Position numbers and translations under genes: made by a program. Below are positions 3,177-29,829 of a stretch of 31,622 nucleotides of DNA, one piece after another; position 1 is the stretch's first letter; every line of letters starts with the position of its first letter. This DNA comes from Escherichia phage 9W. Below the pieces are notes generated by a model. It was not told the origin of the DNA, did no database searches, and saw only the letters and a list, made by a program, of their open reading frames with translations. The stretch lies in the sequence record OM475431, one strand, 5' to 3'.

Positions 3177-3349
3177 GAATACCTCGCCGTGATGAATACA
3201 CGGCAAGGCTACTGAGTCGCGCCCCGCGATTCGCTAAGGTGCTGTTGTGTCAGTGATAAGCCATCCGGGACTGATGGCGGAAGATGCGCATCGTCGGGAA
3301 ACTGATGCCGACATGTGACTCCTCTAATCACTATTCAGGACTCCTGACA
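3177..3349. promoter_or_regulatory. Divergent late-promoter region between P (leftward) and O (rightward)
   Basis: Positional inference from P2 organisation (Ogr-dependent late promoters). I could not find a clean TGT-N12-ACA element by eye. Confidence 0.3.
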
Positions 3350-4204
3350 ATGGCAAAAAAAGTCTCAAAATTCTTTCGTATCGGCGTTGAGGGTGACACC
3401 TGTGACGGGCGTGTCATCAGTGCGCAGGATATTCAGGAAATGGCCGAAACCTTTGACCCGCGAGTCTATGGTTGCCGCATTAACCTGGAACATCTGCGCG
3501 GCATCCTGCCTGACGGTATTTTTAAGCGTTATGGCGATGTGGTCGAACTGAAGGCCGAAAAGATTGACGATGATTCGGCGCTGAAAGGCAAATGGGCGCT
3601 GTTTGCGAAAATCACCCCGACCGATGACCTTATCGCGATGAACAAGGCCGCGCAGAAGGTCTATACCTCAATGGAAATTCAGCCGAACTTTGCCAATACC
3701 GGCAAATGTTATCTGGTGGGTCTGGCCGTCACCGATGACCCGGCAAGCCTCGGCACGGAATACCTGGAATTCTGCCGCACGGCAAAACACAACCCTCTGA
3801 ACCGCTTCAAATTAAGCCCTGAAAACCTGATTTCAGTGGCAACGCCTGTTGAGCTGGAATTTGAAGACCTGCCTGAAACCGTGTTCACAGCCCTGACCGA
3901 AAAGGTGAAATCCATTTTTGGCCGCAAACAGGCCAGCGATGACGCCCGTCTGAATGACGTGCATGAAGCGGTGACCGCTGTCGCTGAGCATGTGCAGGAA
4001 AAACTGAGCGCCACTGAGCAGCGCCTTGCTGAGATGGAAACCGCCTTTTCCGCACTTAAGCAGGATGTGACTGACAGGGCGGATGAAACCAGTCAGGCAT
4101 TCACCCGCCTGAAAAACAGTCTCGACCACACCGAAAGTCTGACCCAGCAGCGCCGCAGCAAGGCCACCGGCGGTGGCGGTGACGCCCTGATGACGAACTG
4201 CTGA
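3350..4204 (+). CDS. O: Capsid scaffolding protein
   Basis: Start at ATG 3350 (MAKKVSKFFRIGVEGD...) gives 284 aa as in P2 gpO; the track ORF starts 66 nt upstream. Confidence 0.88.
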   Translation: MAKKVSKFFRIGVEGDTCDGRVISAQDIQEMAETFDPRVYGCRINLEHLRGILPDGIFKRYGDVVELKAEKIDDDSALKGKWALFAKITPTDDLIAMNKAAQKVYTSMEIQPNFANTGKCYLVGLAVTDDPASLGTEYLEFCRTAKHNPLNRFKLSPENLISVATPVELEFEDLPETVFTALTEKVKSIFGRKQASDDARLNDVHEAVTAVAEHVQEKLSATEQRLAEMETAFSALKQDVTDRADETSQAFTRLKNSLDHTESLTQQRRSKATGGGGDALMTNC

Positions 4205-4262
4205 CCGGCGTCAGTCAGTCCGGGAAAACCTTCACGATTAACCCTTAATTTCAGGAAAAACT

Positions 4263-5336
4263 ATGCGCCAGGAAACCCGCTTTAAATTTAATGCCTACCT
4301 GTCCCGTGTTGCCGAGCTGAACGGCATCGACGCCGGTGATGTGTCGAAAAAATTCACCGTTGAACCGTCGGTCACCCAGACCCTGATGAACACCATGCAG
4401 GAGTCCTCTGACTTTCTGACCCGCATCAATATTGTGCCGGTCAGCGAAATGAAAGGGGAAAAAATTGGCATCGGTGTCACCGGCTCCATCGCCAGCACCA
4501 CCGACACCGCCGGTGGCACCGAGCGTCAGCCGAAGGACTTCTCGAAGCTGGCGTCAAACAAGTACGAATGCGACCAGATTAACTTCGATTTTTATATCCG
4601 CTACAAAACGCTTGACCTGTGGGCGCGTTATCAGGATTTCCAGCTCCGTATCCGTAACGCCATTATCAAACGCCAGTCCCTTGATTTCATCATGGCCGGT
4701 TTTAACGGCGTGAAGCGTGCCGAAACCTCTGACCGCAACAGCAATCCGATGCTGCAGGATGTGGCGGTCGGCTGGCTGCAGAAATACCGCAATGAAGCCC
4801 CGGCGCGCGTGATGAGCAAGGTCACTGACGAGGAAGGGCACACCACCTCTGAGGTCATCCGCGTGGGTAAGGGCGGTGATTATGCCAGCCTCGATGCACT
4901 GGTGATGGATGCGACCAACAACCTGATTGAACCGTGGTATCAGGAAGACCCTGACCTTGTGGTGATTGTGGGACGTCAGCTACTGGCGGACAAGTATTTC
5001 CCCATCGTTAACAAGGAACAGGACAACAGCGAAATGCTGGCCGCTGACGTCATCATCAGCCAGAAACGCATCGGTAACCTGCCGGCAGTGCGCGTCCCGT
5101 ACTTCCCGGCAGATGCGATGCTCATCACGAAGCTGGAAAACCTGTCCATCTACTACATGGATGACAGCCATCGCCGCGTGATTGAGGAAAATCCGAAACT
5201 CGACCGCGTGGAGAACTACGAGTCAATGAATATTGATTACGTGGTGGAAGACTACGCCGCCGGTTGCCTGGTGGAAAAAATTAAGGTCGGTGATTTCTCC
5301 ACACCGGCCAGGGCGACCGCAGAGCCGGGAGCGTAA
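4263..5336 (+). CDS. N: Major capsid protein
   Basis: 357-aa ORF, same length and position as P2 gpN. Confidence 0.9.
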   Translation: MRQETRFKFNAYLSRVAELNGIDAGDVSKKFTVEPSVTQTLMNTMQESSDFLTRINIVPVSEMKGEKIGIGVTGSIASTTDTAGGTERQPKDFSKLASNKYECDQINFDFYIRYKTLDLWARYQDFQLRIRNAIIKRQSLDFIMAGFNGVKRAETSDRNSNPMLQDVAVGWLQKYRNEAPARVMSKVTDEEGHTTSEVIRVGKGGDYASLDALVMDATNNLIEPWYQEDPDLVVIVGRQLLADKYFPIVNKEQDNSEMLAADVIISQKRIGNLPAVRVPYFPADAMLITKLENLSIYYMDDSHRRVIEENPKLDRVENYESMNIDYVVEDYAAGCLVEKIKVGDFSTPARATAEPGA

Positions 5337-5339
5337 CCG

Positions 5340-6083
5340 ATGACGAGTCCCGCACAGCGCCACATGATGCGGGTCTCGGCAGCGATGACCGCGCAGCGGG
5401 AAGCCGCCCCGCTGCGACATGCAACTGTCTATGAGCAGATGCTGGTTAAGCTCGCCGCAGACCAGCGCACACTGAAAGCGATTTATTCAAAAGAGCTTAA
5501 GGCCGCGAAAAAGCGCGAACTGCTGCCGTTCTGGTTGCCGTGGGTGAACGGTGTGCTGGAGCAGGGCAAAGGTGCACAGGATGACATTCTGATGACGGTC
5601 ATGCTGTGGCGTCTGGATACCGGCGATATTGCCGGTGCGCTGGAGATTGCCCGTTATGCCCTGAAATACGGTCTGACCATGCCGGGTAAACACCGCCGTA
5701 CCCCGCCGTACATGTTCACCGAGGAGGTGGCGCTCGCGGCCATGCGCGCTCACGCTGCCGGTGAGTCTGTGGATACCCGCCTGCTGACGGACACCCTCGA
5801 ACTGACCGCCACGGCTGACATGCCTGATGAAGTGCGCGCAAAGCTGCACAAAATCACCGGTCTGTTTCTGCGTGACGCTGGTGATGCCGCCGGTGCGCTG
5901 GCTCACCTGCAACGTGCGACACAGCTCGACTGTCAGGCAGGCGTCAAAAAAGAGATTGAACGACTGGAGCGGGAGCTGAAACCGAAGCCGGAGCCGCAGC
6001 CCAAAGCGGCCACCCGTGCCACGCGTAAGACCCGGAGCGTGACACCGGCAAAACGTGGACGCCCGAAAAAGAAAGCCAGTTAA
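5340..6083 (+). CDS. M: Terminase small (endonuclease) subunit
   Basis: 247 aa, P2 gpM length and position; basic Lys/Arg-rich C-terminus. Confidence 0.85.
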   Translation: MTSPAQRHMMRVSAAMTAQREAAPLRHATVYEQMLVKLAADQRTLKAIYSKELKAAKKRELLPFWLPWVNGVLEQGKGAQDDILMTVMLWRLDTGDIAGALEIARYALKYGLTMPGKHRRTPPYMFTEEVALAAMRAHAAGESVDTRLLTDTLELTATADMPDEVRAKLHKITGLFLRDAGDAAGALAHLQRATQLDCQAGVKKEIERLERELKPKPEPQPKAATRATRKTRSVTPAKRGRPKKKAS

Positions 6084-6182
6084 CAACCGAATGCGCCCCG
6101 CGCCAGGGCGGCACGCCGGTCAGTGAGGGTGAATCACCTGACACTGCACCGGCGTCCACCGCCCGACTTTTCAGAGGTAGTC

Positions 6183-6692
6183 ATGATGACGCTGATTATT
6201 CCGCGAAAGGAGGCTCCCGTGTCCGGTGAGGGTACGGTGGTCATCCCGCAACCGGCAGGCGACGAGCCGGTGATTAAAAACACGTTCTTTTTTCCCGATA
6301 TCGACCCGAAGCGCGTCCGGGAACGTATGCGCCTTGAGCAGACCGTCGCCCCCGCCCGTCTGCGTGAGGCCATCAAGTCAGGCATGGCGGAGACGAATGC
6401 GGAGCTGTACGAGTACCGCGAACAGAAAATTGCCGCCGGTTTTACGCGTCTGGCGGACGTTCCGGCGGACGACATCGACGGTGAAAGCATCAAAGTTTTT
6501 TACTACGAGCGCGCCGTGTGTGCGATGGCGACCGCGTCGCTTTATGAGCGTTACCGCGGCGTGGATGCCAGTGCCAAGGGCGACAAGAAGGCCGACAGCA
6601 TTGACAGCACCATTGATGAGCTGTGGCGGGATATGCGCTGGGCGGTGGCGCGTATCCAGGACAAGCCGCGCTGCATCGTGAGTCAAATCTGA
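6183..6692 (+). CDS. L: Head completion protein
   Basis: Start at ATG 6183 with an upstream GAGG gives 169 aa as in P2 gpL; the track ORF begins at GTG 6123. Confidence 0.8.
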   Translation: MMTLIIPRKEAPVSGEGTVVIPQPAGDEPVIKNTFFFPDIDPKRVRERMRLEQTVAPARLREAIKSGMAETNAELYEYREQKIAAGFTRLADVPADDIDGESIKVFYYERAVCAMATASLYERYRGVDASAKGDKKADSIDSTIDELWRDMRWAVARIQDKPRCIVSQI

Positions 6693-6895
6693 TGAAGACC
6701 TTTGCGCTACAGGGCGACACGCTCGACGCCATTTGTGTCCGGTATTACGGGCGCACTGAGGGCGTGGTTGAGACCGTGCTCGCCGCAAATCCGGGACTGG
6801 CTGAACTGGGCGCGGTGCTGCCGCACGGCACCGCCGTCGAACTGCCCGACGTTCAGACCGCGCCCGTGGCTGAAACTGTCAATCTGTGGGAGTAA
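6692..6895 (+). CDS. X: Tail protein X (LysM-like)
   Basis: 67 aa (MKTFALQGDTLDAICVRYYG...); start overlaps the L stop (ATGA); P2 gpX position. Confidence 0.85.
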   Translation: MKTFALQGDTLDAICVRYYGRTEGVVETVLAANPGLAELGAVLPHGTAVELPDVQTAPVAETVNLWE

Positions 6896-6898
6896 CGC

Positions 6899-7180
6899 AT
6901 GACAGCAGAAGAAAAAAGCGTCCTGTCGCTTTTCATGATTGGGGTGCTGATTGTTGTCGGTAAGGTGCTTGCCGGTGGTGAACCCATCACCCCGCGTCTG
7001 TTTATCGGGCGCATGTTGCTCGGTGGTTTTGTCTCGATGGTTGCCGGTGTTGTTCTGGTGCAGTTTCCTGACCTGTCACTGCCTGCGGTGTGCGGTATCG
7101 GCTCCATGCTGGGTATCGCCGGTTATCAGGTGATTGAGATTGCCATTCAGCGCCGCTTTAAGGGCAGGGGGAAACCGTAA
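6899..7180 (+). CDS. Y: Holin
   Basis: 93 aa with hydrophobic transmembrane segments and a charged C-terminus; P2 gpY length and position. Confidence 0.85.
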   Translation: MTAEEKSVLSLFMIGVLIVVGKVLAGGEPITPRLFIGRMLLGGFVSMVAGVVLVQFPDLSLPAVCGIGSMLGIAGYQVIEIAIQRRFKGRGKP

Positions 7181-7677
7181 TGCCGGTTATTAACACGCAT
7201 CAGAATATCGCCGCCTTTCTCGACATGCTGGCCGTGTCCGAAGGGACGGCAAACCATCCGCTGACGAAAAACCGGGGCTATGACGTGATAGTCACCGGAC
7301 TGGACGGGAAGCCGGAAATTTTCACCGACTACAGTGACCACCCGTTCGCACATGGCCGACCGGCGAAGGTGTTTAACCGTCGCGGTGAAAAATCCACGGC
7401 CTCCGGTCGCTATCAGCAGCTTTACCTGTTCTGGCCGCATTACCGCAAACAGCTTGCCCTGCCGGATTTCAGTCCGTTGTCACAGGACAGACTTGCCATT
7501 CAGTTGATCCGCGAACGCGGTGCGCTGGATGACATCCGGGCGGGACGCATTGAGCGCGCCATTTCACGCTGTCGCAATATCTGGGCGTCCCTGCCGGGTG
7601 CCGGTTACGGTCAGCGTGAGCATTCACTGGAAAAACTGGTCACCGTCTGGCGTACCGCTGGCGGCGTACCGGCTTAA
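7180..7677 (+). CDS. K: Endolysin (lysozyme)
   Basis: 165 aa, P2 gpK length; follows the holin. Confidence 0.88.
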   Translation: MPVINTHQNIAAFLDMLAVSEGTANHPLTKNRGYDVIVTGLDGKPEIFTDYSDHPFAHGRPAKVFNRRGEKSTASGRYQQLYLFWPHYRKQLALPDFSPLSQDRLAIQLIRERGALDDIRAGRIERAISRCRNIWASLPGAGYGQREHSLEKLVTVWRTAGGVPA

Positions 7678-7691
7678 ACGGAGTAAACACC

Positions 7692-8117
7692 ATGAAGAAA
7701 TTATCCCTTTCACTGATGCTGAACGTGTCGCTGGCGCTGATGCTGGCACTGTCCCTGATTTACCCGCAGAGCGTGGCCGTCAGTTTTGTCGCCACCTGGG
7801 CGATTCTGGCGACGGTTATCTGTGTGGTTGCCGGTGGTGTCGGCGTGTATGCCACTGAGTATGTGCTGGAACGCTACGGGCGGGAGCTGCCGCCGGAATC
7901 GCTGGCCGTGAAGATTGTCACGTCGCTGTTTTTGCAGCCGGTGCGGTGGCGCAGACGGGCGGCGGCTCTGGTGGTGATGGTGGCGACGTTTATCGCGCTG
8001 GTCGCTGCCGGGTGGATTTTTACCGCGCTGATTTATCTTGTGGCGTCGGTGTTCTTCCGGCTGATACGTAAAGCCTGCCGTCAGCGTTTTGAGGGGCGGG
8101 AACCATGTCAAAGCTGA
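7692..8117 (+). CDS. lysA: Lysis regulatory membrane protein LysA
   Basis: 141 aa, strongly hydrophobic multi-transmembrane protein at the P2 lysA position. Confidence 0.8.
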   Translation: MKKLSLSLMLNVSLALMLALSLIYPQSVAVSFVATWAILATVICVVAGGVGVYATEYVLERYGRELPPESLAVKIVTSLFLQPVRWRRRAAALVVMVATFIALVAAGWIFTALIYLVASVFFRLIRKACRQRFEGREPCQS

Positions 8118-8548
8118 TGATTGTGCTGGTCGTGTTGTTATCGCTGGCGGTGGCGGGGCTGTTTCTGGCGAAGCATGAAAACGCCAGCCTGCGCGCCTCG
8201 CTGGACAGGGCGAACAACGTCGCCAGTGAACAGCAGACGACCATCACCATGCTGAAAAACCAGCTTCATGTTGCCCTTACCAGGGCAGACAAAAACGAGC
8301 TGGCGCAGGTGGCACTGCGTCAGGAGCTGGAGAACGCCGCGAAACGTGAAGCACAGCGCGAGAAAACCATCACGAGGTTACTGAATGAAAACGAAGATTT
8401 TCGCCGCTGGTACGGCGCTGACCTGCCTGATGCTGTGCGCCGGTTGCACCAGCGCCCCGCCTGCACCGATGCCAGTGATTGTCCACAACGCCTGCCCGAA
8501 AGTGAGTCTTTGCCCGATGCCGGGCAGCGACCCGCAGACGAACGGTGA
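8105..8548 (+). CDS. lysB: Rz-like inner-membrane spanin LysB
   Basis: N-terminal transmembrane helix followed by a coiled-coil-like region; P2 lysB position. The exact start is uncertain (147 aa here versus 141 aa in P2). Confidence 0.8.
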   Translation: MSKLMIVLVVLLSLAVAGLFLAKHENASLRASLDRANNVASEQQTTITMLKNQLHVALTRADKNELAQVALRQELENAAKREAQREKTITRLLNENEDFRRWYGADLPDAVRRLHQRPACTDASDCPQRLPESESLPDAGQRPADER

Positions 8549-8675
8549 TTTAAGTGCCGATATCCGGCAGCTTGAGAACGCGCTGGCGCGCTGTGCCAGC
8601 CAGGTAAAAATGATTAAACACTGTCAGGACGAAAACGATGCTCAAACCCGACAGCCTGCGCAGGGCGCTGACTGA
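8385..8675 (+). CDS. lysC: Rz1-like outer-membrane lipoprotein spanin LysC
   Basis: 96 aa in the +1 frame, overlapping the 3' end of lysB; signal peptide with a lipobox-like LCAGC; proline-rich. Confidence 0.8.
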   Translation: MKTKIFAAGTALTCLMLCAGCTSAPPAPMPVIVHNACPKVSLCPMPGSDPQTNGDLSADIRQLENALARCASQVKMIKHCQDENDAQTRQPAQGAD

Positions 8676-9105
8676 TGCCGTCACGGTGCTGAAAACTAAC
8701 CCCGATATGCTGCGGATATTCGTGGATAACGGGAGTATTGCCTCCACACTGGCGACGTCGCTGTCATTCGAAAAGCGTTACACGCTCAATGTCATTGTGA
8801 CCGACTTTACCGGTGATTTTGACCTGCTCATCGTGCCGGTGCTGGCGTGGCTGCGGGAAAATCAGCCCGACATCATGACCACCGACGCAGGCCAGAAAAA
8901 GGGCTTCACGTTTTATGCAGACATCAACAATGACAGCAGCTTTGATATCAGTATCAGCCTGATGCTGACCGAGCGCACGCTGGTCAGTGAGGTTGACGGT
9001 GCGCTGCATGTGAAGAATATCCCGGAACCCACGCCGCCGGAGCCGGTCACCCGCCCGATGGAGCTTTATATCAATGGCGAACTGGTGAGCAAGTGGGATG
9101 AATGA
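8638..9105 (+). CDS. R: Tail completion protein R
   Basis: 155 aa, P2 gpR length and position. Confidence 0.85.
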   Translation: MLKPDSLRRALTDAVTVLKTNPDMLRIFVDNGSIASTLATSLSFEKRYTLNVIVTDFTGDFDLLIVPVLAWLRENQPDIMTTDAGQKKGFTFYADINNDSSFDISISLMLTERTLVSEVDGALHVKNIPEPTPPEPVTRPMELYINGELVSKWDE

Positions 9106-9550
9106 GTTTAAGCGTTTTGAAGACCGGCTGACCGGACTGGTTGAATCGCTGTCACCGTCAGGGCGTCGGCGACTGAGCGCCGAACTGGCAAAACGTCTGC
9201 GGCAGAGTCAGCAGCGTCGGGTGATGGCACAGAAAGCCCCGGACGGCACACCCTACGCGCCACGCCAGCAGCAGAGCGCCAGAAAAAAGACCGGTCGCGT
9301 TAAGCGAAAAATGTTTGCGAAACTTATCACCAGTCGTTTTTTGCATATCCGCGCCAGCCCGGAACAGGCATCAATGGAATTTTACGGCGGGAAGTCACCG
9401 AAAATCGCCAGCGTGCATCAGTTTGGTCTGTCGGAAGAAACCCGGAAAGACGGTAAGAAAATTGATTATCCGGCGCGTCCTTTGCTCGGCTTTACCGGTA
9501 AGGATGTGCAGATGATTGAAGAGATTATCCTGTCTCACCTCGACCGTTAG
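9098..9550 (+). CDS. S: Tail completion protein S
   Basis: 150 aa, P2 gpS length and position. Confidence 0.85.
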   Translation: MNEFKRFEDRLTGLVESLSPSGRRRLSAELAKRLRQSQQRRVMAQKAPDGTPYAPRQQQSARKKTGRVKRKMFAKLITSRFLHIRASPEQASMEFYGGKSPKIASVHQFGLSEETRKDGKKIDYPARPLLGFTGKDVQMIEEIILSHLDR

Positions 9551-9582
9551 TTGTGCCATTCCCGACACCTCATCGTCACATT

Positions 9583-9604
9583 GCCGCCGGTATGACCCGG
9601 CGGC
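9583..9604 (+). other. Perfect 8-bp GC-rich inverted repeat (GCCGCCGG-tatgac-CCGGCGGC) in the S-V intergenic region
   Basis: Seen directly in sequence; no downstream U-tract; lies where the P2 late promoter for V is expected. Confidence 0.5.
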
Positions 9605-9616
9605 ATCCTTCCCGTT

Positions 9617-10252
9617 ATGAACACTCTCGCAAATATTCAGGAACTCGCGCGCGCACTGCGCAACATGATCCGCACCGGCGTTATCGTCGAAACCGACCTT
9701 AACGCCGGTCGCTGCCGTGTGCAGACCGGCGGCATGTGCACCGACTGGCTTCAGTGGCTGACCCATCGCGCAGGACGTTCGCGCACATGGTGGGCACCTT
9801 CCGTGGGGGAACAGGTGCTGATTCTGTCCGTGGGCGGTGAACTCGACACGGCGTTCGTTCTGCCGGGGATTTATTCCGGCGATAACCCTGCGCCGTCTGC
9901 GTCGTCTGATGCCCTGCATATCCGTTTCCCTGACGGGGCGGTGATTGAGTATGAACCTGAAACCAGTGCACTGACGGTAAGCGGAATTAAAACGGCCAGC
10001 GTGACGGCTTCTGATTCTGTTACCGCCACGGTGCCGGTGGTCATGGTGAAAGCGTCAACCCGCATCACCCTGGACACCCCGGAGGTGGTCTGCACCAACA
10101 GACTGATTACCGGCACGCTGGAAGTACAGAAGGGCGGGACGATGCGCGGCAACATTGAACACACCGGCGGTGAACTCTCATCAAACGGTAAGGTACTGCA
10201 TACCCACAAACACCCCGGCGACAGCGGCGGCACAACCGGGAGTCCTTTATGA
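9617..10252 (+). CDS. V: Baseplate spike / assembly protein V
   Basis: 211 aa, P2 gpV length and position. Confidence 0.88.
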   Translation: MNTLANIQELARALRNMIRTGVIVETDLNAGRCRVQTGGMCTDWLQWLTHRAGRSRTWWAPSVGEQVLILSVGGELDTAFVLPGIYSGDNPAPSASSDALHIRFPDGAVIEYEPETSALTVSGIKTASVTASDSVTATVPVVMVKASTRITLDTPEVVCTNRLITGTLEVQKGGTMRGNIEHTGGELSSNGKVLHTHKHPGDSGGTTGSPL

Positions 10253-10596
10253 CAGCGCGTTATCTCGGAATGAATCGCAGTAATGGCCTGACTGTCACTG
10301 ACCTTGAGCATATCAGCCAGAGTATCGGCGATATCCTGCGCACGCCGGTCGGCTCACGGGTGATGCGTCGTGATTACGGCTCGTTGCTGGCATCAATGAT
10401 TGACCAGCCGCAGACCCCGGCGCTTGAGTTGCAGATTAAGGTCGCCTGTTACATGGCAGTGCTGAAATGGGAACCCCGCGTCACCCTGTCATCCGTCACC
10501 ACGGCGCGCAGCTTTGACGGGCGAATGACGGTCACGTTGACCGGCCAGCACAACGACACCGGCCAGCCACTTTCGTTAACCATCCCTGTGAGTTGA
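10249..10596 (+). CDS. W: Baseplate protein W
   Basis: 115 aa, P2 gpW length and position. Confidence 0.88.
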   Translation: MTARYLGMNRSNGLTVTDLEHISQSIGDILRTPVGSRVMRRDYGSLLASMIDQPQTPALELQIKVACYMAVLKWEPRVTLSSVTTARSFDGRMTVTLTGQHNDTGQPLSLTIPVS

Positions 10597-10600
10597 AACC

Positions 10601-11509
10601 ATGCCGATTATCGACCTGAACCAGCTACCCGCACCGGATGTGGTCGAGGAGCTGGACTTTGAAACCATTCTTGCCGAACGCAAGGCGACACTGATTTCCC
10701 TTTACCCGGAAGACCAGCAGGAGGCGGTCGCCCGTACCCTGACGCTGGAATCCGAGCCTCTCGTCAAACTGCTGGAGGAAAATGCTTATCGTGAGCTTAT
10801 CTGGCGTCAGCGTGTGAATGAGGCTGCACGGGCGGTGATGCTGGCCTGTGCAGCCGGTAATGACCTTGATGTGATTGGTGCCAATTACAACACCACGCGC
10901 CTGACTATCACCCCGGCAGATGATTCGACCATTCCGCCGACACCGGCAGTGATGGAGTCTGACACCGATTATCGTCTGCGTATTCAGCAGGCGTTTGAGG
11001 GCTTAAGCGTCGCCGGGTCGGTGGGTGCCTATCAGTATCATGGTCGCAGTGCCGACGGGCGTGTCGCGGATATCTCTGTCACCAGTCCGTCTCCGGCCTG
11101 CGTCACCATCTCTGTGCTGTCACGTGAAAATAACGGTGTTGCATCCGAAGACCTGCTGGCCGTGGTGCGTAACGCCCTTAATGGTGAGGACGTCAGGCCG
11201 GTGGCCGACCGCGTGACCGTGCAGTCTGCCGCCATCGTTGAATACCAGATAAACGCCACGCTTTACCTTTACCCTGGTCCCGAAAGCGAACCCATCCGCG
11301 CTGCCGCCGTGAAAAAACTGGAAGCGTATATCACGGCACAGCACCGGCTGGGGCGCGACATCCGTCTGTCTGCCATTTATGCCGCTTTGCATGTGGAAGG
11401 TGTGCAGCGTGTCGAACTGGCAGCACCACTGGCCGACATCGTGCTCAACAGTACGCAGGCGTCTTTCTGTACCGAATACCGCGTCGTGACCGGAGGCTCG
11501 GATGAGTGA
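10601..11509 (+). CDS. J: Baseplate protein J
   Basis: 302 aa, P2 gpJ length and position. Confidence 0.88.
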   Translation: MPIIDLNQLPAPDVVEELDFETILAERKATLISLYPEDQQEAVARTLTLESEPLVKLLEENAYRELIWRQRVNEAARAVMLACAAGNDLDVIGANYNTTRLTITPADDSTIPPTPAVMESDTDYRLRIQQAFEGLSVAGSVGAYQYHGRSADGRVADISVTSPSPACVTISVLSRENNGVASEDLLAVVRNALNGEDVRPVADRVTVQSAAIVEYQINATLYLYPGPESEPIRAAAVKKLEAYITAQHRLGRDIRLSAIYAALHVEGVQRVELAAPLADIVLNSTQASFCTEYRVVTGGSDE

Positions 11510-12032
11510 TTCGCGACTGCTGCCGACCGGCTCATCACCGCTTGAGGTCGCCGCCGCAAAAGCCTGTGCGGAAATTGAAAAAACGCCGGTCAGTATTCGT
11601 GAGCTGTGGAACCCGGACACCTGTCCGGCAAATCTGCTGCCGTGGCTGGCGTGGGCGTTTTCGGTCGACAGGTGGGATGAAAAGTGGCCGGAAGCGACAA
11701 AACGCGCCGTTATCCGCGATGCCTATTTCATCCACTGTCATAAAGGCACTATAGGTGCAATCCGGCGTGTGGTGGAGCCGCTCGGCTATCTCATCAACGT
11801 GACGGAGTGGTGGGAAACCAGTGACCCGCCGGGCACCTTCCGGCTTGATATTGGTGTACTGGAAAGTGGCATCACAGAGGCAATGTATCAGGAAATGGAA
11901 CGGCTGATTGCTGATGCCAAACCTGCAAGTCGCCACCTTATTGGCCTGAACATTACCCGGGACATTCCCGGCTACCTGTTCGCCGGTTGTGTGGCTTACG
12001 ACGGCGATGTAATTACGGTTTACCCCGGATAA
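11502..12032 (+). CDS. I: Baseplate protein I
   Basis: 176 aa, P2 gpI length and position. Confidence 0.85.
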   Translation: MSDSRLLPTGSSPLEVAAAKACAEIEKTPVSIRELWNPDTCPANLLPWLAWAFSVDRWDEKWPEATKRAVIRDAYFIHCHKGTIGAIRRVVEPLGYLINVTEWWETSDPPGTFRLDIGVLESGITEAMYQEMERLIADAKPASRHLIGLNITRDIPGYLFAGCVAYDGDVITVYPG

Positions 12033-12042
12033 GTGAGGAATA

Positions 12043-14289
12043 ATGAGCACAAAATTCAGAACCGTTATCACCACTGCCGGTGCAGCAAAGCTGGCAGCGG
12101 CAACCGCGCCGGGAGGGCGGAAGGTCAACATTACCACGATGGCCGTCGGGGATGGCGGTGGTAAATTGCCTGTCCCGGATGCCGGACAGACCGGGCTTAT
12201 CCACGAAGTCTGGCGACATGCGCTGAACAAAATCAGCCAGGACAAACGAAACAGTAATTATATTATCGCAGAGCTGGTTATTCCGCCGGAGGTGGGCGGT
12301 TTCTGGATGCGTGAGCTTGGCCTGTACGATGATGCGGGAACGTTAATTGCCGTGGCGAACATGGCCGAAAGTTATAAGCCTGCCCTTGCCGAAGGCTCAG
12401 GGCGTTCGCAGACCTGCCGTATGGTCATCATCGTCAGCAGTGTGGCCTCAGTGGAGCTGACCATTGACACCACAACGGTGATGGCAACGCAGGATTATGT
12501 TGATGACAAAATTGCAGAACATGAACAGTCACGACGTCACCCGGACGCCTCGCTGACCGCCAAAGGTTTTACTCAGTTAAGCAGTGCGACCAACAGCACG
12601 TCTGAAACACTCGCCGCAACACCAAAAGCGGTAAAAGCAGCATATGACCTTGCTAACGGAAAATATACCGCTCAGGACGCCAGCACGGGGCGAAAAGGTC
12701 TTGTCCAGCTCAGTAGTGCCACCAACAGCACGTCTGAAACGCTCGCCGCAACACCAAAAGCGGTAAAAGCAGCATATGACCTTGCTAACGGGAAATACAC
12801 TGCACAGGATGCCACCACCGCGCGAAAAGGCCTTGTTCAGCTCAGTAGTGCCACCAACAGCGATTCTGAAACGCTGGCCGCAACGCCAAAGGCGGTTAAG
12901 ACAGCGTATGACCTTGCTAACGGGAAATACACTGCACAGGATGCCACCACAGCGCGAAAAGGTCTTGTCCAGCTAAGTAGCGCCACCAACAGTGATTCTG
13001 AAACGCTGGCCGCAACACCAAAAGCGGTGAAGTCTGCCAATGACAATGCTGAAAAACGTCTTCAGAAAGATCAGAACGGTGCGGATATTCCTGATAAAGA
13101 ACGCTTCCTGAGTAACATTAATGTTTACAGCAAAGGTGAAGTGGATAAGAAAAAGGGAATGCGAAAGTATTCGTTTGCAGCCCCTGCAAATGTCGTTGCC
13201 GGGAAGTGGTATCCCGTTATCTTTCGCCGTGCTGCCAGCCTTTCAGGAGAAATGGCATCCCGCGTCGTTATTTCCACTGGTTGTTATAACGGCGATTATG
13301 TAATGAATAACTGCGAGTTTAATGGCATGGTTATGCCCGGAGGATGGACTGATCGTGGTTCATATGCGGCAGGTTATTTCTGGACGTATCAGACCAATGA
13401 GCGTTCAATCCATTCCATTGTTACAAGCCTGAAAGATGATGATGTATGTAGTGTTTTTTATGTTGAAGCCAGAGCTTTCCCTGTGCAAATTCTTGCAGAG
13501 GAAGGGCTAACGGTTATTGTTCCGACAGAGGATTATGTCGTCGGTCAAACGACATATAAGTGGGGGGCAACTAATCCCGCTACAGAAAGCACGAACGCAC
13601 AGGCTATTCTGGATTTTAAAAATGGGCGCGGTTATTACTGCTCACATCCATTTATTTCTAACCTTTCAGGAAATGCTGCAACAGCCTCAAAACTCGAAAC
13701 ACCGAGGAAAATAGCAGGTGTTGCCTTTGATGGTTCTGGAGATATTACCCTTAATGCCAGAAATGTCGGTGCATTTGCACTTCGGCAGACAGGTAATACG
13801 GTTAATGGTGATACAGCCGTTGGATGGAATTGGGACAGTGGCGCATACAACGCTCTGATTGGGGGAGCATCTGCATTAATTCTTCACTTTAATATAAATG
13901 CTGGTAGCTGCCCGGCTGTACAGTTTCGTGTGAATTATAAAAATGGCGGTATATCTTACAGGTCAGCCCGTGATGGTTATGGTTTTGAATCTGGCTGGTC
14001 TGATTTCTATACCACAACACGAAAACCCTCAGCGGGAGATGTTGGTGCATACACCAAAGCTGAGTCAGATTCACGTTATGTGAGAGACATGCGGCTGGGC
14101 GGTGCATCTACATATAAACCAGCAAATAATGGTACTACATGGACGCATCAGGCTCCGTCAGGTTGCGTATATACCGGCATTATTGTTCAGGATACCGGCT
14201 CAAACTCTGCCGATAACATTGGTGGCGTATATTACAGACCAGTGCAGAAATACATTAACGGGACATGGTATAACGTGGCGCAGGTATAA
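12043..14289 (+). CDS. H: Tail fibre protein (conserved N-terminus, repeat shaft, divergent low-GC C-terminal tip)
   Basis: 748 aa with a GAGGAA Shine-Dalgarno; conserved tail-fibre N-terminus; four tandem 44-aa repeats; P2 gpH is 669 aa. Confidence 0.85.
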   Translation: MSTKFRTVITTAGAAKLAAATAPGGRKVNITTMAVGDGGGKLPVPDAGQTGLIHEVWRHALNKISQDKRNSNYIIAELVIPPEVGGFWMRELGLYDDAGTLIAVANMAESYKPALAEGSGRSQTCRMVIIVSSVASVELTIDTTTVMATQDYVDDKIAEHEQSRRHPDASLTAKGFTQLSSATNSTSETLAATPKAVKAAYDLANGKYTAQDASTGRKGLVQLSSATNSTSETLAATPKAVKAAYDLANGKYTAQDATTARKGLVQLSSATNSDSETLAATPKAVKTAYDLANGKYTAQDATTARKGLVQLSSATNSDSETLAATPKAVKSANDNAEKRLQKDQNGADIPDKERFLSNINVYSKGEVDKKKGMRKYSFAAPANVVAGKWYPVIFRRAASLSGEMASRVVISTGCYNGDYVMNNCEFNGMVMPGGWTDRGSYAAGYFWTYQTNERSIHSIVTSLKDDDVCSVFYVEARAFPVQILAEEGLTVIVPTEDYVVGQTTYKWGATNPATESTNAQAILDFKNGRGYYCSHPFISNLSGNAATASKLETPRKIAGVAFDGSGDITLNARNVGAFALRQTGNTVNGDTAVGWNWDSGAYNALIGGASALILHFNINAGSCPAVQFRVNYKNGGISYRSARDGYGFESGWSDFYTTTRKPSAGDVGAYTKAESDSRYVRDMRLGGASTYKPANNGTTWTHQAPSGCVYTGIIVQDTGSNSADNIGGVYYRPVQKYINGTWYNVAQV
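12565..13035 (+). repeat. Tandem 132-bp (44-codon) in-frame repeat, about 3.6 copies, inside the H shaft
   Basis: Unit Q codons at 12574, 12706, 12838, 12970 (period 132 nt); units differ at a few positions (NSTSE versus NSDSE, S/T, G/A). Confidence 0.9.
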
Positions 14290-14292
14290 TTT

Positions 14293-14820
14293 ATGCAGCA
14301 TTTAAAAAATATTACGGCGGGTAATCCAAAAACGGTTGAACAATATCAATTGACAAAGGACTTTGATGTTGTCTGGTTTTTTTCAGAAGATGGTAAGAAC
14401 TGGTACGAACAACAAAAGTATTTTGCTGATGACACGATAAAAATAGCGTACGACAAAGATAATATTATCCGCTATGTGGAAAAGGATGTGACAGCTATCA
14501 GACCGGATGGATTAAGTGTGGTTGAAGTGGCGGATATTACTGCTAATCGGCGGGCGGACATTTCAGGGAACTGGATGTTTAAGGACGGCAAAGTGATTAA
14601 ACGCATTTATACGGAAGAGGAATTACAGCAGCAGGCAGAAATTCGGAAAGCCAGACTTCTTGCAGATGCTGAATCCGTGATTTTGCCGCTGGAGCGCGCG
14701 GTCAGACTGAACATGGCAACAGATGAGGAGCGTAGCCGACTGGATGCATGGGAGCGTTACAGCGTTCTGGTCAGTCGTGTGGATCCTGCAAATCCTGAAT
14801 GGCCGGAAATGCCGCAATAA
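14293..14820 (+). CDS. G: Tail fibre assembly chaperone
   Basis: 175 aa, P2 gpG length; AT-rich N-terminal half, GC-rich conserved C-terminal half ending ...[11 protein letters not shown]. Confidence 0.85.
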
Positions 14821-14855
14821 GTTGTATGAGCTCTGGTGTGAGCTTACATATCTAT

Positions 14856-14895
14856 GGCACAGAGTAAAGACTAATCTGACAGTCCGCTCTGTGCC
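14856..14895. other. Perfect 9-bp inverted repeat (GGCACAGAG ... CTCTGTGCC, 22-nt spacer) at the junction between G and the cargo gene
   Basis: Seen in sequence; lies between the convergent 3' ends of G (+) and the 251-aa gene (-). Possible bidirectional terminator or recombination junction; no canonical U-tract. Confidence 0.4.
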
Positions 14896-15012
14896 AAAAA
14901 CGGGCAGAGTGAATGGCTAAGTCTAGCTCATTAGAAATGTTCGCTTCATGAAAATGGCTGCAGCAAGGATCTATCTCACTGCGGCCTCTTTACAATAACG
15001 AAATTTTGCGAG

Positions 15013-15768
15013 CTATTCCTTGGCCTCTTTATTTTTCTCGCCATCGCCAATGTAAAGAAGATAATCGTTTAAGGATATCCTTCCGGAGGGGCCGGTCCAT
15101 GTTATCCATCCGTTCTCACGAAGATTAAATAATGCTTCCATGAACTCATTATCGTTAAAAGAATGATCCTCTGAGAACAGAATGTTCATTTTTCTCAATA
15201 GTTCTTCCACTTTAATCTTTTCATATCGCCTTATCAGACTTAGTGCTTTACGACGCATTAAGATTGTAGGTACTGCTTGTGAACGAATGGTTTTTTGTAT
15301 TCCACTATCAAGAACTTTCTTGATCTTACTCTCTAACTCTTTGATTTTAGTTTCATTATCTCCATTGGACTTAAGCTTTTCATCAACGATGCAAATAATT
15401 TCCTGACTAATGCTGTTCTTGAGGTTGTTTATTTTTTCTTCATTGTTGAGAATCTCATCAGAGCTTCCTGCATGGGGTTTTTTCCATATGTGCTGACGCA
15501 TATCCGTTACCGTATCTCTCATCATAGAGAATGTATCTGAATATAACTTGTCAAATATTTTTTCCAGTCGTTCGACACTTGCCTGGATGTCTTTTGCTGC
15601 TTTAGTTGTCTCTTTAGAAGCCTCATTCGACATTTTATAAAAAACAAAAGAAAGCCAAATAGCCCCAATGGCGAGTACTAATGAGGCTATTGTGGCAATA
15701 AAACCTATTATTGTTATTGCTGTATCTAATGTACCTGCTGCATCTGTGACTACTGTTTCTGCTGCCAT
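15013..15768 (-). CDS. Hypothetical membrane-anchored coiled-coil protein (cargo at the P2 Z/fun position; candidate phage-exclusion or defence gene)
   Basis: 251-aa ORF antisense to the late operon; GAGGA Shine-Dalgarno 5-6 nt upstream of the ATG; N-terminal hydrophobic helix (ITIIGFIATIASLVLAIGAIWLSFVFY), then a Lys/Glu-rich predicted coiled coil; about 30% GC in a sampled 60-nt stretch versus about 60% in the late genes. Confidence 0.75.
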   Translation of the reverse strand: MAAETVVTDAAGTLDTAITIIGFIATIASLVLAIGAIWLSFVFYKMSNEASKETTKAAKDIQASVERLEKIFDKLYSDTFSMMRDTVTDMRQHIWKKPHAGSSDEILNNEEKINNLKNSISQEIICIVDEKLKSNGDNETKIKELESKIKKVLDSGIQKTIRSQAVPTILMRRKALSLIRRYEKIKVEELLRKMNILFSEDHSFNDNEFMEALFNLRENGWITWTGPSGRISLNDYLLYIGDGEKNKEAKE

Positions 15769-16278
15769 ATATCCTCAATATTTAACCATACAGGGTAGCG
15801 TGTTTTAACCGCGGGGAAGTCGGGGTGGTGACACCCTAGCCTTACCCCGATTCCAGAGTATTTATTTATCATACCATTGAAACTATTTAATTTTATCGAA
15901 AATTTTGTCAGAGCGTGACTGAAAAGTCTTCAGCACGTCAAGCATATCGTCGCCGTTCAATTAACACTGAGCCTTTTCTTAGAGGGGTGGGCTGCGCAGT
16001 TGCGAGGTTATGCCCCAGTTCCTAGTTCCTCACTACATTCTAATTAAGCCGGCCAACTAAATGTCCGCTTTTCGCTCAAAGCAGACTGTCAGATTTGATA
16101 GCGTTTGGGCTATGTAAATTGTCAGTTGGAAAATGAGTGAGTACAAATCAGGATAGGCTGGCGGATTACCCGCCTTTTCTTTGTCTGTTGTTTCATCCCC
16201 TGACCAGCCAGGTCAAATAGCGTCTCATGCTCTGCACAACAGAAAATAGTTGCACCCATTAACCACGGAGTTAAACGG

Positions 16279-17469
16279 ATGAGTGACTATCATCACGGCG
16301 TGCAGGTGCTGGAGATTAACGACGGCACCCGCGTCATTTCCACTGTATCCACTGCCATTGTCGGCATGGTCTGCACGGCCAGCGATGCGGATGCGGAAAC
16401 CTTCCCCCTCAATAAACCTGTGCTGATTACCAATGTGCAGAGCGCAATTGCAAAGGCCGGTAAAAAAGGCACGCTGGCGGCGTCGCTGCAGGCCATCGCT
16501 GACCAGTCAAAACCGGTCACCGTTGTCGTGCGTGTGGAAGACGGCACCGGCGACGACGAAGAAACGAAACTCGCGCAGACCGTTTCCAATATCATCGGCA
16601 CCACCGACGAAAACGGTCAGTACACCGGACTGAAAGCCCTGATGGGCGCTGAGTCGGTTACCGGCGTTAAACCGCGTATTCTCGGCGTGCCGGGACTGGA
16701 CACCAAAGAGGTCGCCGTCGCACTGGCATCGGTATGCCAGGAACTGAATGCATTCGGGTATATCAGCGCATGGGGCTGTAAGACCATTTCCGAGGCAAAA
16801 GCCTACCGTCAGAATTTCAGCCAGCGTGAGCTGATGGTCATCTGGCCGGATTTCCTCGCATGGGATACGGTTACCAGTACCACCGCCACCGCGTATGCCA
16901 CCGCCCGTGCGCTGGGTCTGCGCGCTAAAATCGACCAGGAGCAGGGCTGGCATAAAACGCTGTCCAACGTCGGGGTGAACGGTGTTACCGGCATCAGTGC
17001 ATCCGTCTTCTGGGATTTGCAGAAGCCGGGCACTGATGCTGACCTGCTTAACGAGTCAGGCGTCACTACGCTGATTCGCCGCGACGGTTTCCGCTTCTGG
17101 GGTAACCGTACCTGCTCTGATGATCCGCTGTTCCTCTTTGAAAGTTACACCCGCACCGCGCAGGTACTGGCCGACACGATGGCTGAGGCGCACATGTGGG
17201 CTATTGATAAGCCCATCACCGCAACGCTGATTCGCGACATCATTGACGGCATCAATGCCAAATTCCGTGAACTGAAAAACAACGGTTATATCGTGGATGG
17301 TACATGCTGGTTCAGCGAAGAGTCCAACGATGCGGAAACCCTCAAGGCCGGCAAACTGTATATCGACTACGACTATACCCCGGTGCCTCCTCTTGAAAAT
17401 CTGACCCTGCGCCAGCGTATTACCGATAAATACCTGGCAAATCTGGTCACCTCGGTTAACAGCAATTAA
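16279..17469 (+). CDS. FI: Contractile tail sheath protein
   Basis: 396 aa, P2 gpFI length and position; GGAG Shine-Dalgarno. Confidence 0.9.
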   Translation: MSDYHHGVQVLEINDGTRVISTVSTAIVGMVCTASDADAETFPLNKPVLITNVQSAIAKAGKKGTLAASLQAIADQSKPVTVVVRVEDGTGDDEETKLAQTVSNIIGTTDENGQYTGLKALMGAESVTGVKPRILGVPGLDTKEVAVALASVCQELNAFGYISAWGCKTISEAKAYRQNFSQRELMVIWPDFLAWDTVTSTTATAYATARALGLRAKIDQEQGWHKTLSNVGVNGVTGISASVFWDLQKPGTDADLLNESGVTTLIRRDGFRFWGNRTCSDDPLFLFESYTRTAQVLADTMAEAHMWAIDKPITATLIRDIIDGINAKFRELKNNGYIVDGTCWFSEESNDAETLKAGKLYIDYDYTPVPPLENLTLRQRITDKYLANLVTSVNSN

Positions 17470-29605: not shown

Positions 29606-29829
29606 AGAACACCGCCAGTCGTGAAACTTGTTTTCAGGGCTGGCGGGGTTGAACAACGAGCGAAGCGAGACGTTAGTTGACAGACATATTTTTACTACGT
29701 TGGTGCTGGTTTTTGACGGTTGAAAGGAGTTAGGTTGGAGAGCTAACAACTTACAAATATTCAAAAGTAAGCATCCTGTTGCTAACATGAGGTTGATTTT
29801 TTATGTGGATGATGCAAAAAGGATAGCTA

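What the first reader, a model, noticed from the sequence alone, without database searches (positions are those of the whole stretch)
15013..15768. Antisense AT-rich cargo gene at the Z/fun hotspot: membrane-anchored coiled-coil protein of unknown function
A single 251-aa gene is transcribed against the late operon exactly where P2 carries its T5-exclusion gene and where P2-like phages are known to carry variable anti-phage cargo. It has a hydrophobic N-terminal anchor, a long charged coiled coil and a small C-terminal domain with no recognisable catalytic motif. I cannot say from memory whether it is a P2 Z/fun homologue or a different system.
Basis: partly seen in the sequence, partly recalled or inferred. 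Interest (0 to 1): 0.7.

Follow-up and report, generated by a model that had tools for sequence, protein, structure and literature searches.

The report
Mobile membrane-anchored winged-helix prophage gene
A small self-contained gene in a known cargo slot of a P2-like E. coli phage encodes a membrane-anchored protein from an uncharacterised family that travels on many kinds of phages and on integrons, which makes it a good but untested candidate for a new phage-exclusion gene.

Summary
A 251-aa ORF lies at 15013-15768 (-), has 37% GC against about 56% in the flanking genes, and sits between tail genes G and FI of Peduovirus P22H4, where P2 carries fun(Z). It is not a Fun(Z) homologue and matches no PADLOC, Pfam or NCBIfam family; its only match is PHROG 36054, function unknown. 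Predicted anatomy: a short acidic N-terminus, then one transmembrane helix running on as a single helix to residue 95, a hinge, an amphipathic helical stalk, and a C-terminal winged-helix domain. Residues 25-95 are almost invariant from enterobacteria to Methanoregula although synonymous sites are scrambled; the stalk and head vary. The gene has no conserved neighbour. It is rare and taxonomically scattered: 10 of 5,426 complete E. coli genomes and 44 of 185,579 species genomes. It recurs as cargo in P2-like phages (two sites), lambdoid and other tailed prophages, four inovirus prophages and a Stutzerimonas integron. The enterobacterial about 1.18-kb cassette keeps the same ends, marked by related hairpins. 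My best reading, which is inferred and not shown, is a lysogen-expressed exclusion or abortive-infection protein with a conserved membrane core and a variable sensing head. It is a new family in a known kind of slot and a moderately interesting experimental target.

The parts
14898..16100 (-). Whole mobile cassette of about 1.18 kb. Its extent is the block of homology shared with copies in unrelated genomic contexts.
   Evidence: blastn of the window against other loci gives the same block each time. E. coli lambdoid prophage L016: 14855-16087, 97.6%. C. koseri L007 and L008: 14898-16076, 88.6%. L021: 14904-16082, 96%. Hafnia P2-like L022: 14905-16077, 83%. Serratia L023: 14925-16103, 80%. The variable region among P2-like phages is about 14904-16058.
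14873..14906 (.). Left arm of the 34-nt imperfect inverted repeat that brackets the cargo. It contains a degenerate copy of the hairpin GTCCGCTNT-N6-AAAGCGGAC.
   Evidence: the repeat finder I1: arms 14873-14906 and 16062-16095, 82% complementary, 1155 nt apart. The hairpin motif occurs only at these two places in the 31.6-kb window, against 0.04 expected by chance. The arm is conserved in P2, P22H1, P24C9 and 12474III whatever the cargo.
14948..14986 (-). Terminator-like hairpin GGCCGCAG...CUGCAGCC followed by AUUUUCAU, 27 nt after the stop codon.
   Evidence: RNA fold of 14940-15012(-): -22.2 kcal/mol, z = -2.8, 1 of 200 shuffles as good. The consensus scanner did not call it because the loop exceeds 8 nt. 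Function not tested.
15013..15768 (-). Coding sequence, 251 aa plus stop.
15637..15717 (-). Residues 18-44: the single transmembrane helix. Predicted topology is N-terminus outside, C-terminus in the cytoplasm.
   Evidence: Hydropathy. AF2 pLDDT 88-98. Residues 1-17 have no K/R and net charge -3, while there are four K in the 16 residues after the helix. Two homologues (P0161, P0189) carry a signal-peptide-like N-terminal extension ahead of the helix. The topology is inferred from the positive-inside rule and was not tested.
15484..15636 (-). Residues 45-95: juxtamembrane helix continuous with the TM helix. This is the near-invariant core of the family (SVERLEKLFDKLYSDTFSMMRDTVTDMRKHIW).
   Evidence: The majority-residue fraction is 0.86 here and 0.79 in the TM helix, against 0.42 in the linker and 0.39 in the winged helix. 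Invariant columns are listed. AF2 gives one helix over residues 8-95 with pLDDT 86-98. Amino-acid identity to distant homologues is 0.54-0.86 while codon position 3 identity is only 0.30-0.49. There is no match in Pfam or PDB.
15274..15483 (-). Residues 96-165: hinge (residues 96-103, low confidence) and a variable, acidic, amphipathic helical stalk.
   Evidence: AF2 helices 104-134 and 140-182, pLDDT 53-77. Family mean net charge is -4.5. Heptad signal is weak.
15049..15273 (-). Residues 166-240: winged-helix domain with topology H-S-H-H-S-S.
15772..15776 (-). Shine-Dalgarno sequence GAGGA, 3 nt before the ATG.
   Evidence: Read from the sequence. Conserved in all five cassette variants aligned.
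15868..15911 (-). Candidate promoter: extended -10 TGgTATGAT at 15876-15868, with CTGACA at 15911-15906 as a possible -35.
   Evidence: TCAATGGTA(T/C)GAT is conserved in cassettes that are 80-98% identical overall. The scanner lists CTGACA-18-AATAGT at 15911-15882, but the number of promoter-like sites in the region equals the shuffle expectation. This is a consensus match only.
15769..16058 (-). Conserved non-coding upstream part of the cassette, containing the promoter and a 5' leader of about 90 nt.
   Evidence: Conserved about as well as the coding part across contexts. No Rfam match. The leader folds no better than shuffles, z = -0.2.
16062..16095 (.). Right arm of the inverted repeat, with hairpin GTCCGCTTT-TCGCTC-AAAGCAGAC.
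   Evidence: RNA/DNA hairpin z = -3.5. Conserved in all P2-like phages aligned. It lies about 90 nt upstream of the position corresponding to P2's annotated pF activator site, so it is not the Ogr site.

Best explanation
The feature is a self-contained, horizontally mobile accessory gene (a 'moron') sitting in the Z/fun cargo slot of a P2-like phage. Shown or directly predicted: it has its own promoter-like and terminator-like signals and points against the late operon. It encodes a bitopic inner-membrane protein with a short acidic N-terminus and one TM helix that continues as a helix of about 50 residues. After a hinge come a variable amphipathic stalk and a C-terminal winged-helix head. The membrane core (residues 25-95) is under very strong purifying selection across bacteria and one archaeal genus, whereas the stalk and head diverge freely. 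The gene works alone, with no conserved neighbour. It is carried by P2-like, lambdoid and other tailed prophages, by inoviruses next to their repressor, and by an integron. Inferred: it is expressed in the lysogen and protects the host-prophage pair against incoming phages or other mobile DNA. The proposed mechanism is as follows. The long TM-plus-juxtamembrane helices self-associate into a membrane-anchored bundle that holds the winged-helix heads under the membrane. The variable head recognises an invader component, more likely a protein than DNA because its recognition helix and wing are not basic. That signal is passed to the conserved core, which either blocks genome entry at the inner membrane (superinfection exclusion) or perturbs the membrane (abortive infection).
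For: Location: the gene occupies the G-FI slot where P2 has fun(Z). This slot is documented as a second defence-enriched locus of P2-like phages (PMC9519451). Other P2-like phages carry different cargo between the same flanks, including NUDIX+HAD, SMEK and unknown genes. Autonomy: a conserved extended -10 and SD, a terminator-like hairpin, 37% GC against 56%, and no conserved neighbour within +-4 kb in 58 loci. Cargo of many mobile elements: a lambdoid prophage between the replication genes and hokD; prophage ends in C. koseri; between terS and terL, antisense, in Serratia marcescens; between S and V in a Hafnia P2-like phage; and inovirus prophages in Citrobacter, Providencia, Pectobacterium and Alcaligenes. 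In Citrobacter the gene lies inside the tandemly repeated phage unit, downstream of the HTH_3 repressor gene. In Stutzerimonas it sits in an integron array beside IntI (TIGR02249, 504 bits) with attC repeats. One metagenomic copy is next to putAbiC. Patchiness: 10 of 5,426 E. coli genomes and 44 of 185,579 species genomes across more than 10 phyla. Two-speed evolution: core 0.79-0.86 against head 0.39, with saturated synonymous sites. This is the conserved-effector, variable-sensor pattern. Structure: one helix over residues 8-95 at pLDDT 86-98, and a winged helix at 83-97. The winged-helix recognition helix has net charge about 0 and the wing -1.3. Precedents: inovirus genes tested in Pseudomonas gave superinfection exclusion (PMC6813254). 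Integron cassettes of unknown function are reported to encode phage defence (bioRxiv 10.1101/2024.07.02.601719). TM proteins in defence systems are generally regarded as suicide effectors (PMC9122126).
Against: There is no functional data of any kind, so the defence role rests on guilt by location. There is no similarity to any PADLOC model and none to a PHROG with an exclusion or defence label. Many family members sit singly among housekeeping genes with no phage genes nearby by my limited screen, including Limnohabitans, Methanoregula and marine and soil metagenome contigs. Only 8 loci were found in IMG/VR. Context is conserved between species within Psychrobacter and within Methanoregula, which suggests some vertical retention. 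Oligomerisation, topology and expression in the lysogen are inferred only. A near-invariant cytoplasmic helix could equally mean binding to a conserved host partner. A few homologues add an OST-HTH domain, which hints at nucleic-acid binding and not protein sensing.
Confidence: 0.4

Rival explanations
1. The gene is a lysogenic-conversion factor that acts on host physiology and not on invaders. The invariant TM-plus-juxtamembrane helix docks onto a conserved membrane machine or the lipid bilayer, and the protein modulates envelope stress, division or transport to the benefit of the lysogen.
For: The cytoplasmic helix is extremely conserved across bacteria and an archaeon, which fits a conserved cellular partner. 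Many copies sit alone among housekeeping genes. Context is retained within Psychrobacter and within Methanoregula. There are weak, sub-threshold resemblances to membrane-anchored helical stress proteins such as DUF948 and PspB.
Against: The distribution is very patchy at 0.02% of species, and the gene sits on at least five classes of mobile element. Both are unusual for a physiological regulator. A partner common to proteobacteria, Bacteroidota, actinobacteria and methanogens is hard to name. The head domain varies freely.
Confidence: 0.2
2. The protein is a membrane tether that serves the mobile element itself. Like phage phi29 p16.7 (TM + coiled coil + C-terminal DNA-binding domain; from memory), it would anchor replicating or extruding phage DNA, or a phage protein, at the inner membrane.
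For: The architecture is the same. The gene is part of inovirus genomes, which replicate and assemble at the membrane. Some homologues add a second nucleic-acid-binding-type OST-HTH domain. Winged-helix helix 1 is basic, mean +3.1.
Against: In P22H4 and the Serratia prophage the gene is antisense to the late operon and dispensable, since most P2-like phages lack it. It also occurs in an integron and alone in chromosomes without a phage. The canonical DNA-reading surfaces, helix 3 and the wing, are neutral to acidic. In inoviruses it lies in the module downstream of the repressor gene and not in the replication or assembly operon.
Confidence: 0.12
3. The gene is a selfish stabilising or toxic module. 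A membrane-active protein whose loss or deregulation harms the cell would be kept because it stabilises the element that carries it.
For: It is a single-TM protein on mobile elements. It often neighbours toxin-antitoxin-type genes in inovirus ends, such as a HigA-like antitoxin and Xre_MbcA_ParS_C, and hokD in the lambdoid prophage.
Against: No cognate antitoxin gene or conserved small ORF accompanies it. No antisense RNA family was detected. At 251 aa with a folded head domain it is unlike type I toxins. The neighbouring TA genes are not conserved partners.
Confidence: 0.08
4. The gene is a diverged homologue of P2 Fun(Z), the known T5-exclusion gene of this slot.
For: Same slot and same orientation.
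Against: BLASTP best E is 8.7 with no alignable region. The sizes differ, 251 against 528 aa. tblastn of the protein against 50,697 phage records finds only P22H4 itself.
Confidence: 0.01

Closest known systems
P2 Fun(Z), the T5-exclusion and FUdR-sensitivity gene of phage P2
   Same: Same G-FI slot, same antisense orientation, non-essential, AT-rich cargo.
   Different: No sequence similarity. Fun(Z) is 528 aa. No phenotype is known for the P22H4 gene.
The DUF4041 defence protein of Vassallo et al. [quoted passage not shown]
   Same: Single-gene module with the order membrane anchor, helical stalk, C-terminal head (PMC9519451).
   Different: Not homologous, since PADLOC-DB, which I believe includes the Vassallo PD-T4, PD-T7 and PD-lambda systems (not checked here), gives no hit. 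The head here is a plain winged helix with no nuclease motif. The conserved part here is the membrane end.
Membrane superinfection-exclusion proteins such as T4 Imm, P22 SieA, HK97 gp15 and Pf PfsE (from memory), and the inovirus exclusion genes tested by Roux et al. 2019
   Same: Small prophage- or inovirus-encoded inner-membrane proteins expressed in lysogeny that block other phages (PMC6813254).
   Different: No sequence relationship was detected: the PHROG search gives only an unknown-function family. Known exclusion proteins are narrow in host and target range, whereas this family spans more than 10 phyla with an invariant core.
phi29 p16.7 membrane DNA organiser (from memory)
   Same: N-terminal TM helix, coiled coil and a C-terminal nucleic-acid-binding-type domain.
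   Different: Homology was not tested because no sequence was at hand. p16.7 serves the phage's own replication. This gene is dispensable cargo, and its head surface is not basic.
Winged-helix domains of RPA32, MCM, cullin WHB and PadR type
   Same: Fold of residues 166-240. Like RPA32C and cullin WHB, the surface is not strongly basic, which fits protein binding.
   Different: Sequence similarity is marginal (E 8e-4 at best). None of those domains is membrane-tethered.
Integron gene cassettes, including phage-resistance cassettes
   Same: A homologue (46% identity) lies in a Stutzerimonas chromosomal integron array with IntI and attC repeats, with an attC directly upstream and an IS3 insertion downstream. 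Cassettes of unknown function have been reported to encode defence.
   Different: The window copy has its own promoter region and is bounded by a different kind of hairpin, not by attC sites.

Membership tests
P2 Fun(Z) | Sequence homology to P2 Fun(Z) (NP_046777, 528 aa) | tested here: not met
   BLASTP best E 8.7, longest match 12 residues.
P2 Fun(Z) | Blocks growth of T5 and confers FUdR sensitivity | not testable with these tools
   This is a phenotype and needs a plaque assay.
Any defence family in PADLOC-DB v2.0.0 | Significant HMM match to a defence-system protein model | tested here: not met
   The only hit is PDC-M49B at E 0.42, 9.2 bits.
Moron (autonomous accessory transcription unit in a prophage) | Present or absent between otherwise collinear related phages, inserted between conserved genes | tested here: met
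   Flanks are 94-96% identical in P2, P22H1, P24C9 and others, while the middle 53% of the query is replaced.
Moron (autonomous accessory transcription unit in a prophage) | Base composition different from the surrounding phage genes | tested here: met
   GC 0.370 against 0.561.
Moron (autonomous accessory transcription unit in a prophage) | Own promoter and terminator, expressed from the prophage | tested here: inconclusive
   A conserved extended -10 and SD and a terminator-like hairpin with z = -2.8 are sequence predictions only. The count of promoter-like sites equals the chance expectation. Expression was not measured.
Integron gene cassette | Bounded by attC sites in an array next to an integron integrase | tested here: not met
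   Not met for the window copy: there is no attC or intI, and the ends are GTCCGCTTT-N6-AAAGCGGAC hairpins. For the Stutzerimonas homologue (L044) the gene lies in an array with IntI (TIGR02249, 504 bits against a cut-off of 265) and at least 8 attC repeats. An attC lies directly upstream and the downstream side is interrupted by an IS3 transposase.
Winged-helix fold | H1-S1-H2-H3-S2-S3 topology and structural similarity to solved winged-helix domains | tested here: met
DNA-binding winged-helix transcription factors | Basic recognition helix and wing | tested here: not met
   Family mean net charge is +0.1 for H3 and -1.3 for the wing. In P22H4 the H3 sequence is DNEFMEALFNLRE. This is a surface-composition argument and not a binding assay.
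i-spanin (Rz-like) | N-in/C-out TM, periplasmic coiled coil, an o-spanin partner, location in the lysis cassette | tested here: not met
   PHROG Rz-like hit at E 1.1 only. The charge distribution predicts C-in. There is no partner gene. The gene is not in the lysis region.
Parallel coiled coil | Significant 3.5-residue hydrophobic periodicity | tested here: inconclusive
   Best period 3.6-3.7. About 2% of shuffles do as well for residues 47-165, and the value is 0.05-0.13 for the sub-segments. No dedicated predictor was available.

The most novel reading that the evidence does not exclude
This would be the founding member of a pan-prokaryotic family of one-protein membrane-anchored immune or exclusion devices. 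An invariant TM-plus-juxtamembrane helix would act as the effector and a freely swappable winged-helix head as the sensor. The family would be spread by inoviruses, integrons and tailed prophages alike. In enterobacteria it would travel as a 1.18-kb cassette whose ends are a specific pair of hairpins. The same hairpins frame the P2 Z/fun slot, which hints at a hairpin-directed cassette-exchange mechanism for this hotspot.
Probability: 0.3. Interest if true: 0.75.

Novelty: new variant of a known kind. Interest (0 to 1): 0.5.

Why it matters
The Z/fun slot of P2-like phages is an established reservoir of anti-phage genes, yet much of its cargo is unannotated. This cargo gene belongs to a family with no Pfam, NCBIfam or PADLOC entry. 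Its membrane core is conserved to an unusual degree across bacteria and an archaeon. It is carried by filamentous phages, several kinds of tailed prophage and an integron. If it proves to be a defence or exclusion protein, it would add a compact single-gene system with a clear modular logic of a fixed membrane end and a variable head. That system could be tested by head swaps and by point mutations in about 20 invariant residues. The hairpin-bounded cassette may also help explain how cargo is exchanged at this hotspot. If it shows no anti-phage phenotype, it becomes an example of a widely mobile membrane protein with another role, which is also worth knowing for hotspot-based defence prediction.

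Full report
What the window is. The window is 100% identical to Peduovirus P22H4 (LR595869.1 / NC_049385.1) across the 2.2-kb query. The ORF in question is annotated there as a hypothetical protein.

Check of the observation. The ORF listing gives a 251-aa ATG ORF at 15013..15768 on the minus strand. It lies between G (14293-14820, +) and FI (16279-17469, +). P2 carries fun(Z) in the same interval and orientation. GC is 0.370 for the ORF and 0.561 for the FI-T genes. A GAGGA Shine-Dalgarno sequence precedes the ATG. The gene is real. A word-indexed search found 351 relatives. An exhaustive HMM search of 1.84 billion cluster representatives found 691 at E<=1e-3 and 498 at E<=1e-10, nearly all 205-260 aa long. 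Codon position 2 is far more conserved than position 3.

What it is not. BLASTP against P2 Fun(Z) (528 aa) gives nothing (best E 8.7). PADLOC-DB gives nothing. Pfam and NCBIfam give nothing above threshold for the query or for any of 69 homologues. PHROGs returns only phrog_36054, full length, function unknown. tblastn against 50,697 phage records finds only P22H4 itself.

Two-speed evolution. In the 69-sequence alignment the majority-residue fraction is 0.79 for the TM helix and 0.86 for residues 45-96. It is 0.42 for the stalk and 0.39 for the winged helix. Twenty-five columns are invariant, among them W38, R67, L68, E69, F72, Y76, D78, T79, F80, M82, M83, D89, M90, R91, H93 and W95. Recent transfer does not explain this. 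Between the window and homologues from Stutzerimonas, Limnohabitans, Alcaligenes, Methanoregula and others, the 71-codon core is 54-86% identical in protein, while third positions are only 30-49% identical. Only 24-45% of conserved residues use the same codon. The core matches nothing in Pfam or PDB.

Distribution. The family is rare and scattered. The cassette is in 10 of 5,426 complete E. coli genomes. Relatives were found in 44 of 185,579 species-representative genomes. These span Gamma-, Beta-, Alpha- and Deltaproteobacteria, Bacteroidota, Ignavibacteriota, Chloroflexota, Planctomycetota, Actinomycetota, Acidobacteriota, Bacillota, Campylobacterales and the archaeon Methanoregula. Only eight loci were found in IMG/VR.

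Genomic contexts. The gene is always solitary. All-against-all comparison of neighbours within +-4 kb in 58 loci shows no conserved partner. It recurs as cargo of mobile elements:
- the P2-like G-FI slot (window; L015);
- between S and V in a Hafnia P2-like phage whose G-FI spacer is empty;
- a lambdoid E. coli prophage, between the replication genes and hokD;
- the ends of two different C. koseri prophages;
- between terS and terL, antisense, in a Serratia marcescens prophage;
- four inovirus prophages, in Alcaligenes, Pectobacterium, Citrobacter and Providencia. In Citrobacter it lies inside the tandemly repeated 9.2-kb phage unit, downstream of the HTH_3 repressor gene;
- a Stutzerimonas nitrititolerans integron array, next to an integron integrase (TIGR02249, 504 bits) and at least eight attC repeats, with an attC directly upstream and an IS3 transposase downstream;
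- a repeat-separated gene array in Sediminibacterium;
- next to putAbiC on a metagenomic contig.
Other copies sit among housekeeping genes with no obvious mobile element.

The cassette. Among enterobacteria the same block of about 1.18 kb recurs with the same ends in all these contexts, at 80-100% identity. It comprises about 290 nt upstream, the ORF and about 110 nt downstream. The upstream part keeps a conserved extended -10 (TGgTATGAT, 15876-15868) and the SD. The downstream part has a terminator-like hairpin (z = -2.8). The block is framed by a 34-nt imperfect inverted repeat, 14873-14906 and 16062-16095, 82% complementary. Each arm contains a hairpin of the form GTCCGCTNT-N6-ANAGCGGAC. 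That motif occurs nowhere else in the window, against 0.04 expected. The arms belong to the conserved P2 backbone whatever the cargo. Related hairpins also sit at both ends of the cassette in non-P2 contexts, and in L021 and L022 a 3' hairpin is followed within about 20 nt by another 5'-type hairpin. These are not attC sites, and the right arm is not the Ogr site of pF. I could not obtain Nilsson et al. 2004, which may already describe them.

Interpretation. The following are shown or directly predicted: a mobile, autonomous, single-gene accessory unit; the domain plan; and a strongly constrained membrane core with a free-running head. The following are inferred: expression in the lysogen, self-association of the 88-residue helix, cytoplasmic location of the head, and the function. 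The best-supported function is protection against incoming phages or other mobile DNA. Four points support it. First, the slot is a documented defence-enriched locus (PMC9519451). Second, the carriers are the element types known to stockpile such genes: prophage hotspots, the repressor-adjacent part of inovirus prophages and integrons. Third, the distribution is patchy. Fourth, the pattern of a conserved effector with a variable sensor fits. Whether it excludes entry or aborts infection cannot be decided from sequence. I put this reading at about 0.4. The rivals are a host-physiology conversion factor (0.2), a membrane tether serving the element itself in the manner of phi29 p16.7 (0.12), a selfish stabilising or toxic module (0.08), and Fun(Z) homology (rejected).

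Novelty and verdict. The hotspot and the idea of unknown cargo in it are known. About a fifth of P2-like phages lack recognisable defence genes but carry unknown genes at their main defence loci (PMC13586616). The protein family, its architecture and its carrier range have not been described in any library or paper I could search. I rate it a new variant of a known kind, with interest 0.5. It is a well-defined experimental candidate and not a surprise in itself.

Noticed in passing
window 14873-14906 and 16062-16095; also L016, L007, L021, L022, L023 cassette ends: The Z/fun cargo slot is framed by a 34-nt imperfect inverted repeat whose arms each hold a GTCCGCTNT-N6-ANAGCGGAC hairpin. The arms are conserved in all P2-like phages aligned. 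Related hairpins bound the same cassette in lambdoid and other prophages, and in L021 and L022 they occur back to back as if between tandem cassettes. This may be a recombination signal for cargo exchange. It may already be described in Nilsson et al. 2004, which I could not read.
   Followed up: partly
L022 (IMGVR_UViG_2772190620_000003, Hafnia-type P2-like phage) 7690-8865 and 14217-14355: The same cassette sits between late genes S and V, co-directional with them, while this phage's G-FI spacer is only 138 bp and empty. So there is a second insertion site for the cassette in P2-like genomes.
   Followed up: partly
window 29787-30560 (+) and 30659-31357 (+): There are two more AT-rich ORFs (257 and 232 aa, GC about 0.36-0.38) downstream of replication gene A, in the classical old/tin hotspot. 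Neither has a Pfam or PADLOC match. P22H4 therefore has no recognisable defence gene in either hotspot. The ORF at 28911-29399 is a DUF3850/ASCH + DUF7415 protein.
   Followed up: partly
window 12043-14289 (+), tail-fibre gene H: The tail-fibre protein contains about four tandem copies of a unit of about 44 aa (…KGLVQLSSATNS[TD]SETLAATPKAVK[AT]AYDLANGKYTAQDA…), visible in the translation. GC drops to 0.41-0.45 in the C-terminal half and in G.
   Followed up: no
window 16122-16259 (-): A 45-aa ORF overlaps the conserved terminator and pF-upstream region. The corresponding ORF is annotated as a hypothetical protein in P22H1. The DNA is conserved in all P2-like phages aligned, but that may reflect the promoter and terminator and not coding.
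   Followed up: no
L056 (Sediminibacterium ginsengisoli) 5000-15500: This is an array of at least 11 small co-directional ORFs separated by repeats of about 180 nt that end in …AACGTTAGC/AACGTTGT. It looks like a chromosomal cassette array in a Bacteroidota genome. The homologue here is followed 5 nt later by a guanylate-kinase-like P-loop ORF within the same repeat-bounded unit. I did not look for an integrase.
   Followed up: partly
L036 (Citrobacter metagenome scaffold) 500-16700: Two tandem copies of a 9.2-kb inovirus prophage are present. The homologue lies within the repeated unit in the order HTH_3 repressor, 76-aa ORF, the gene, 128-aa ORF.
   Followed up: no
window 15823-15836 (-), 5' leader: The small hairpin GGGTG-TCAC-CACCC shows one compensatory change in the C. 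koseri cassette (GGCTG/CAGCC). The leader as a whole folds no better than shuffles.
   Followed up: partly
family-wide (L044, L013, L025, L065): The gene stays AT-rich (GC3 0.20-0.41) even in hosts I believe are GC-rich, such as Stutzerimonas and Alcaligenes (host GC from memory, not measured here). Limnohabitans (GC3 0.59) and an actinobacterial copy (0.80) are exceptions.
   Followed up: no
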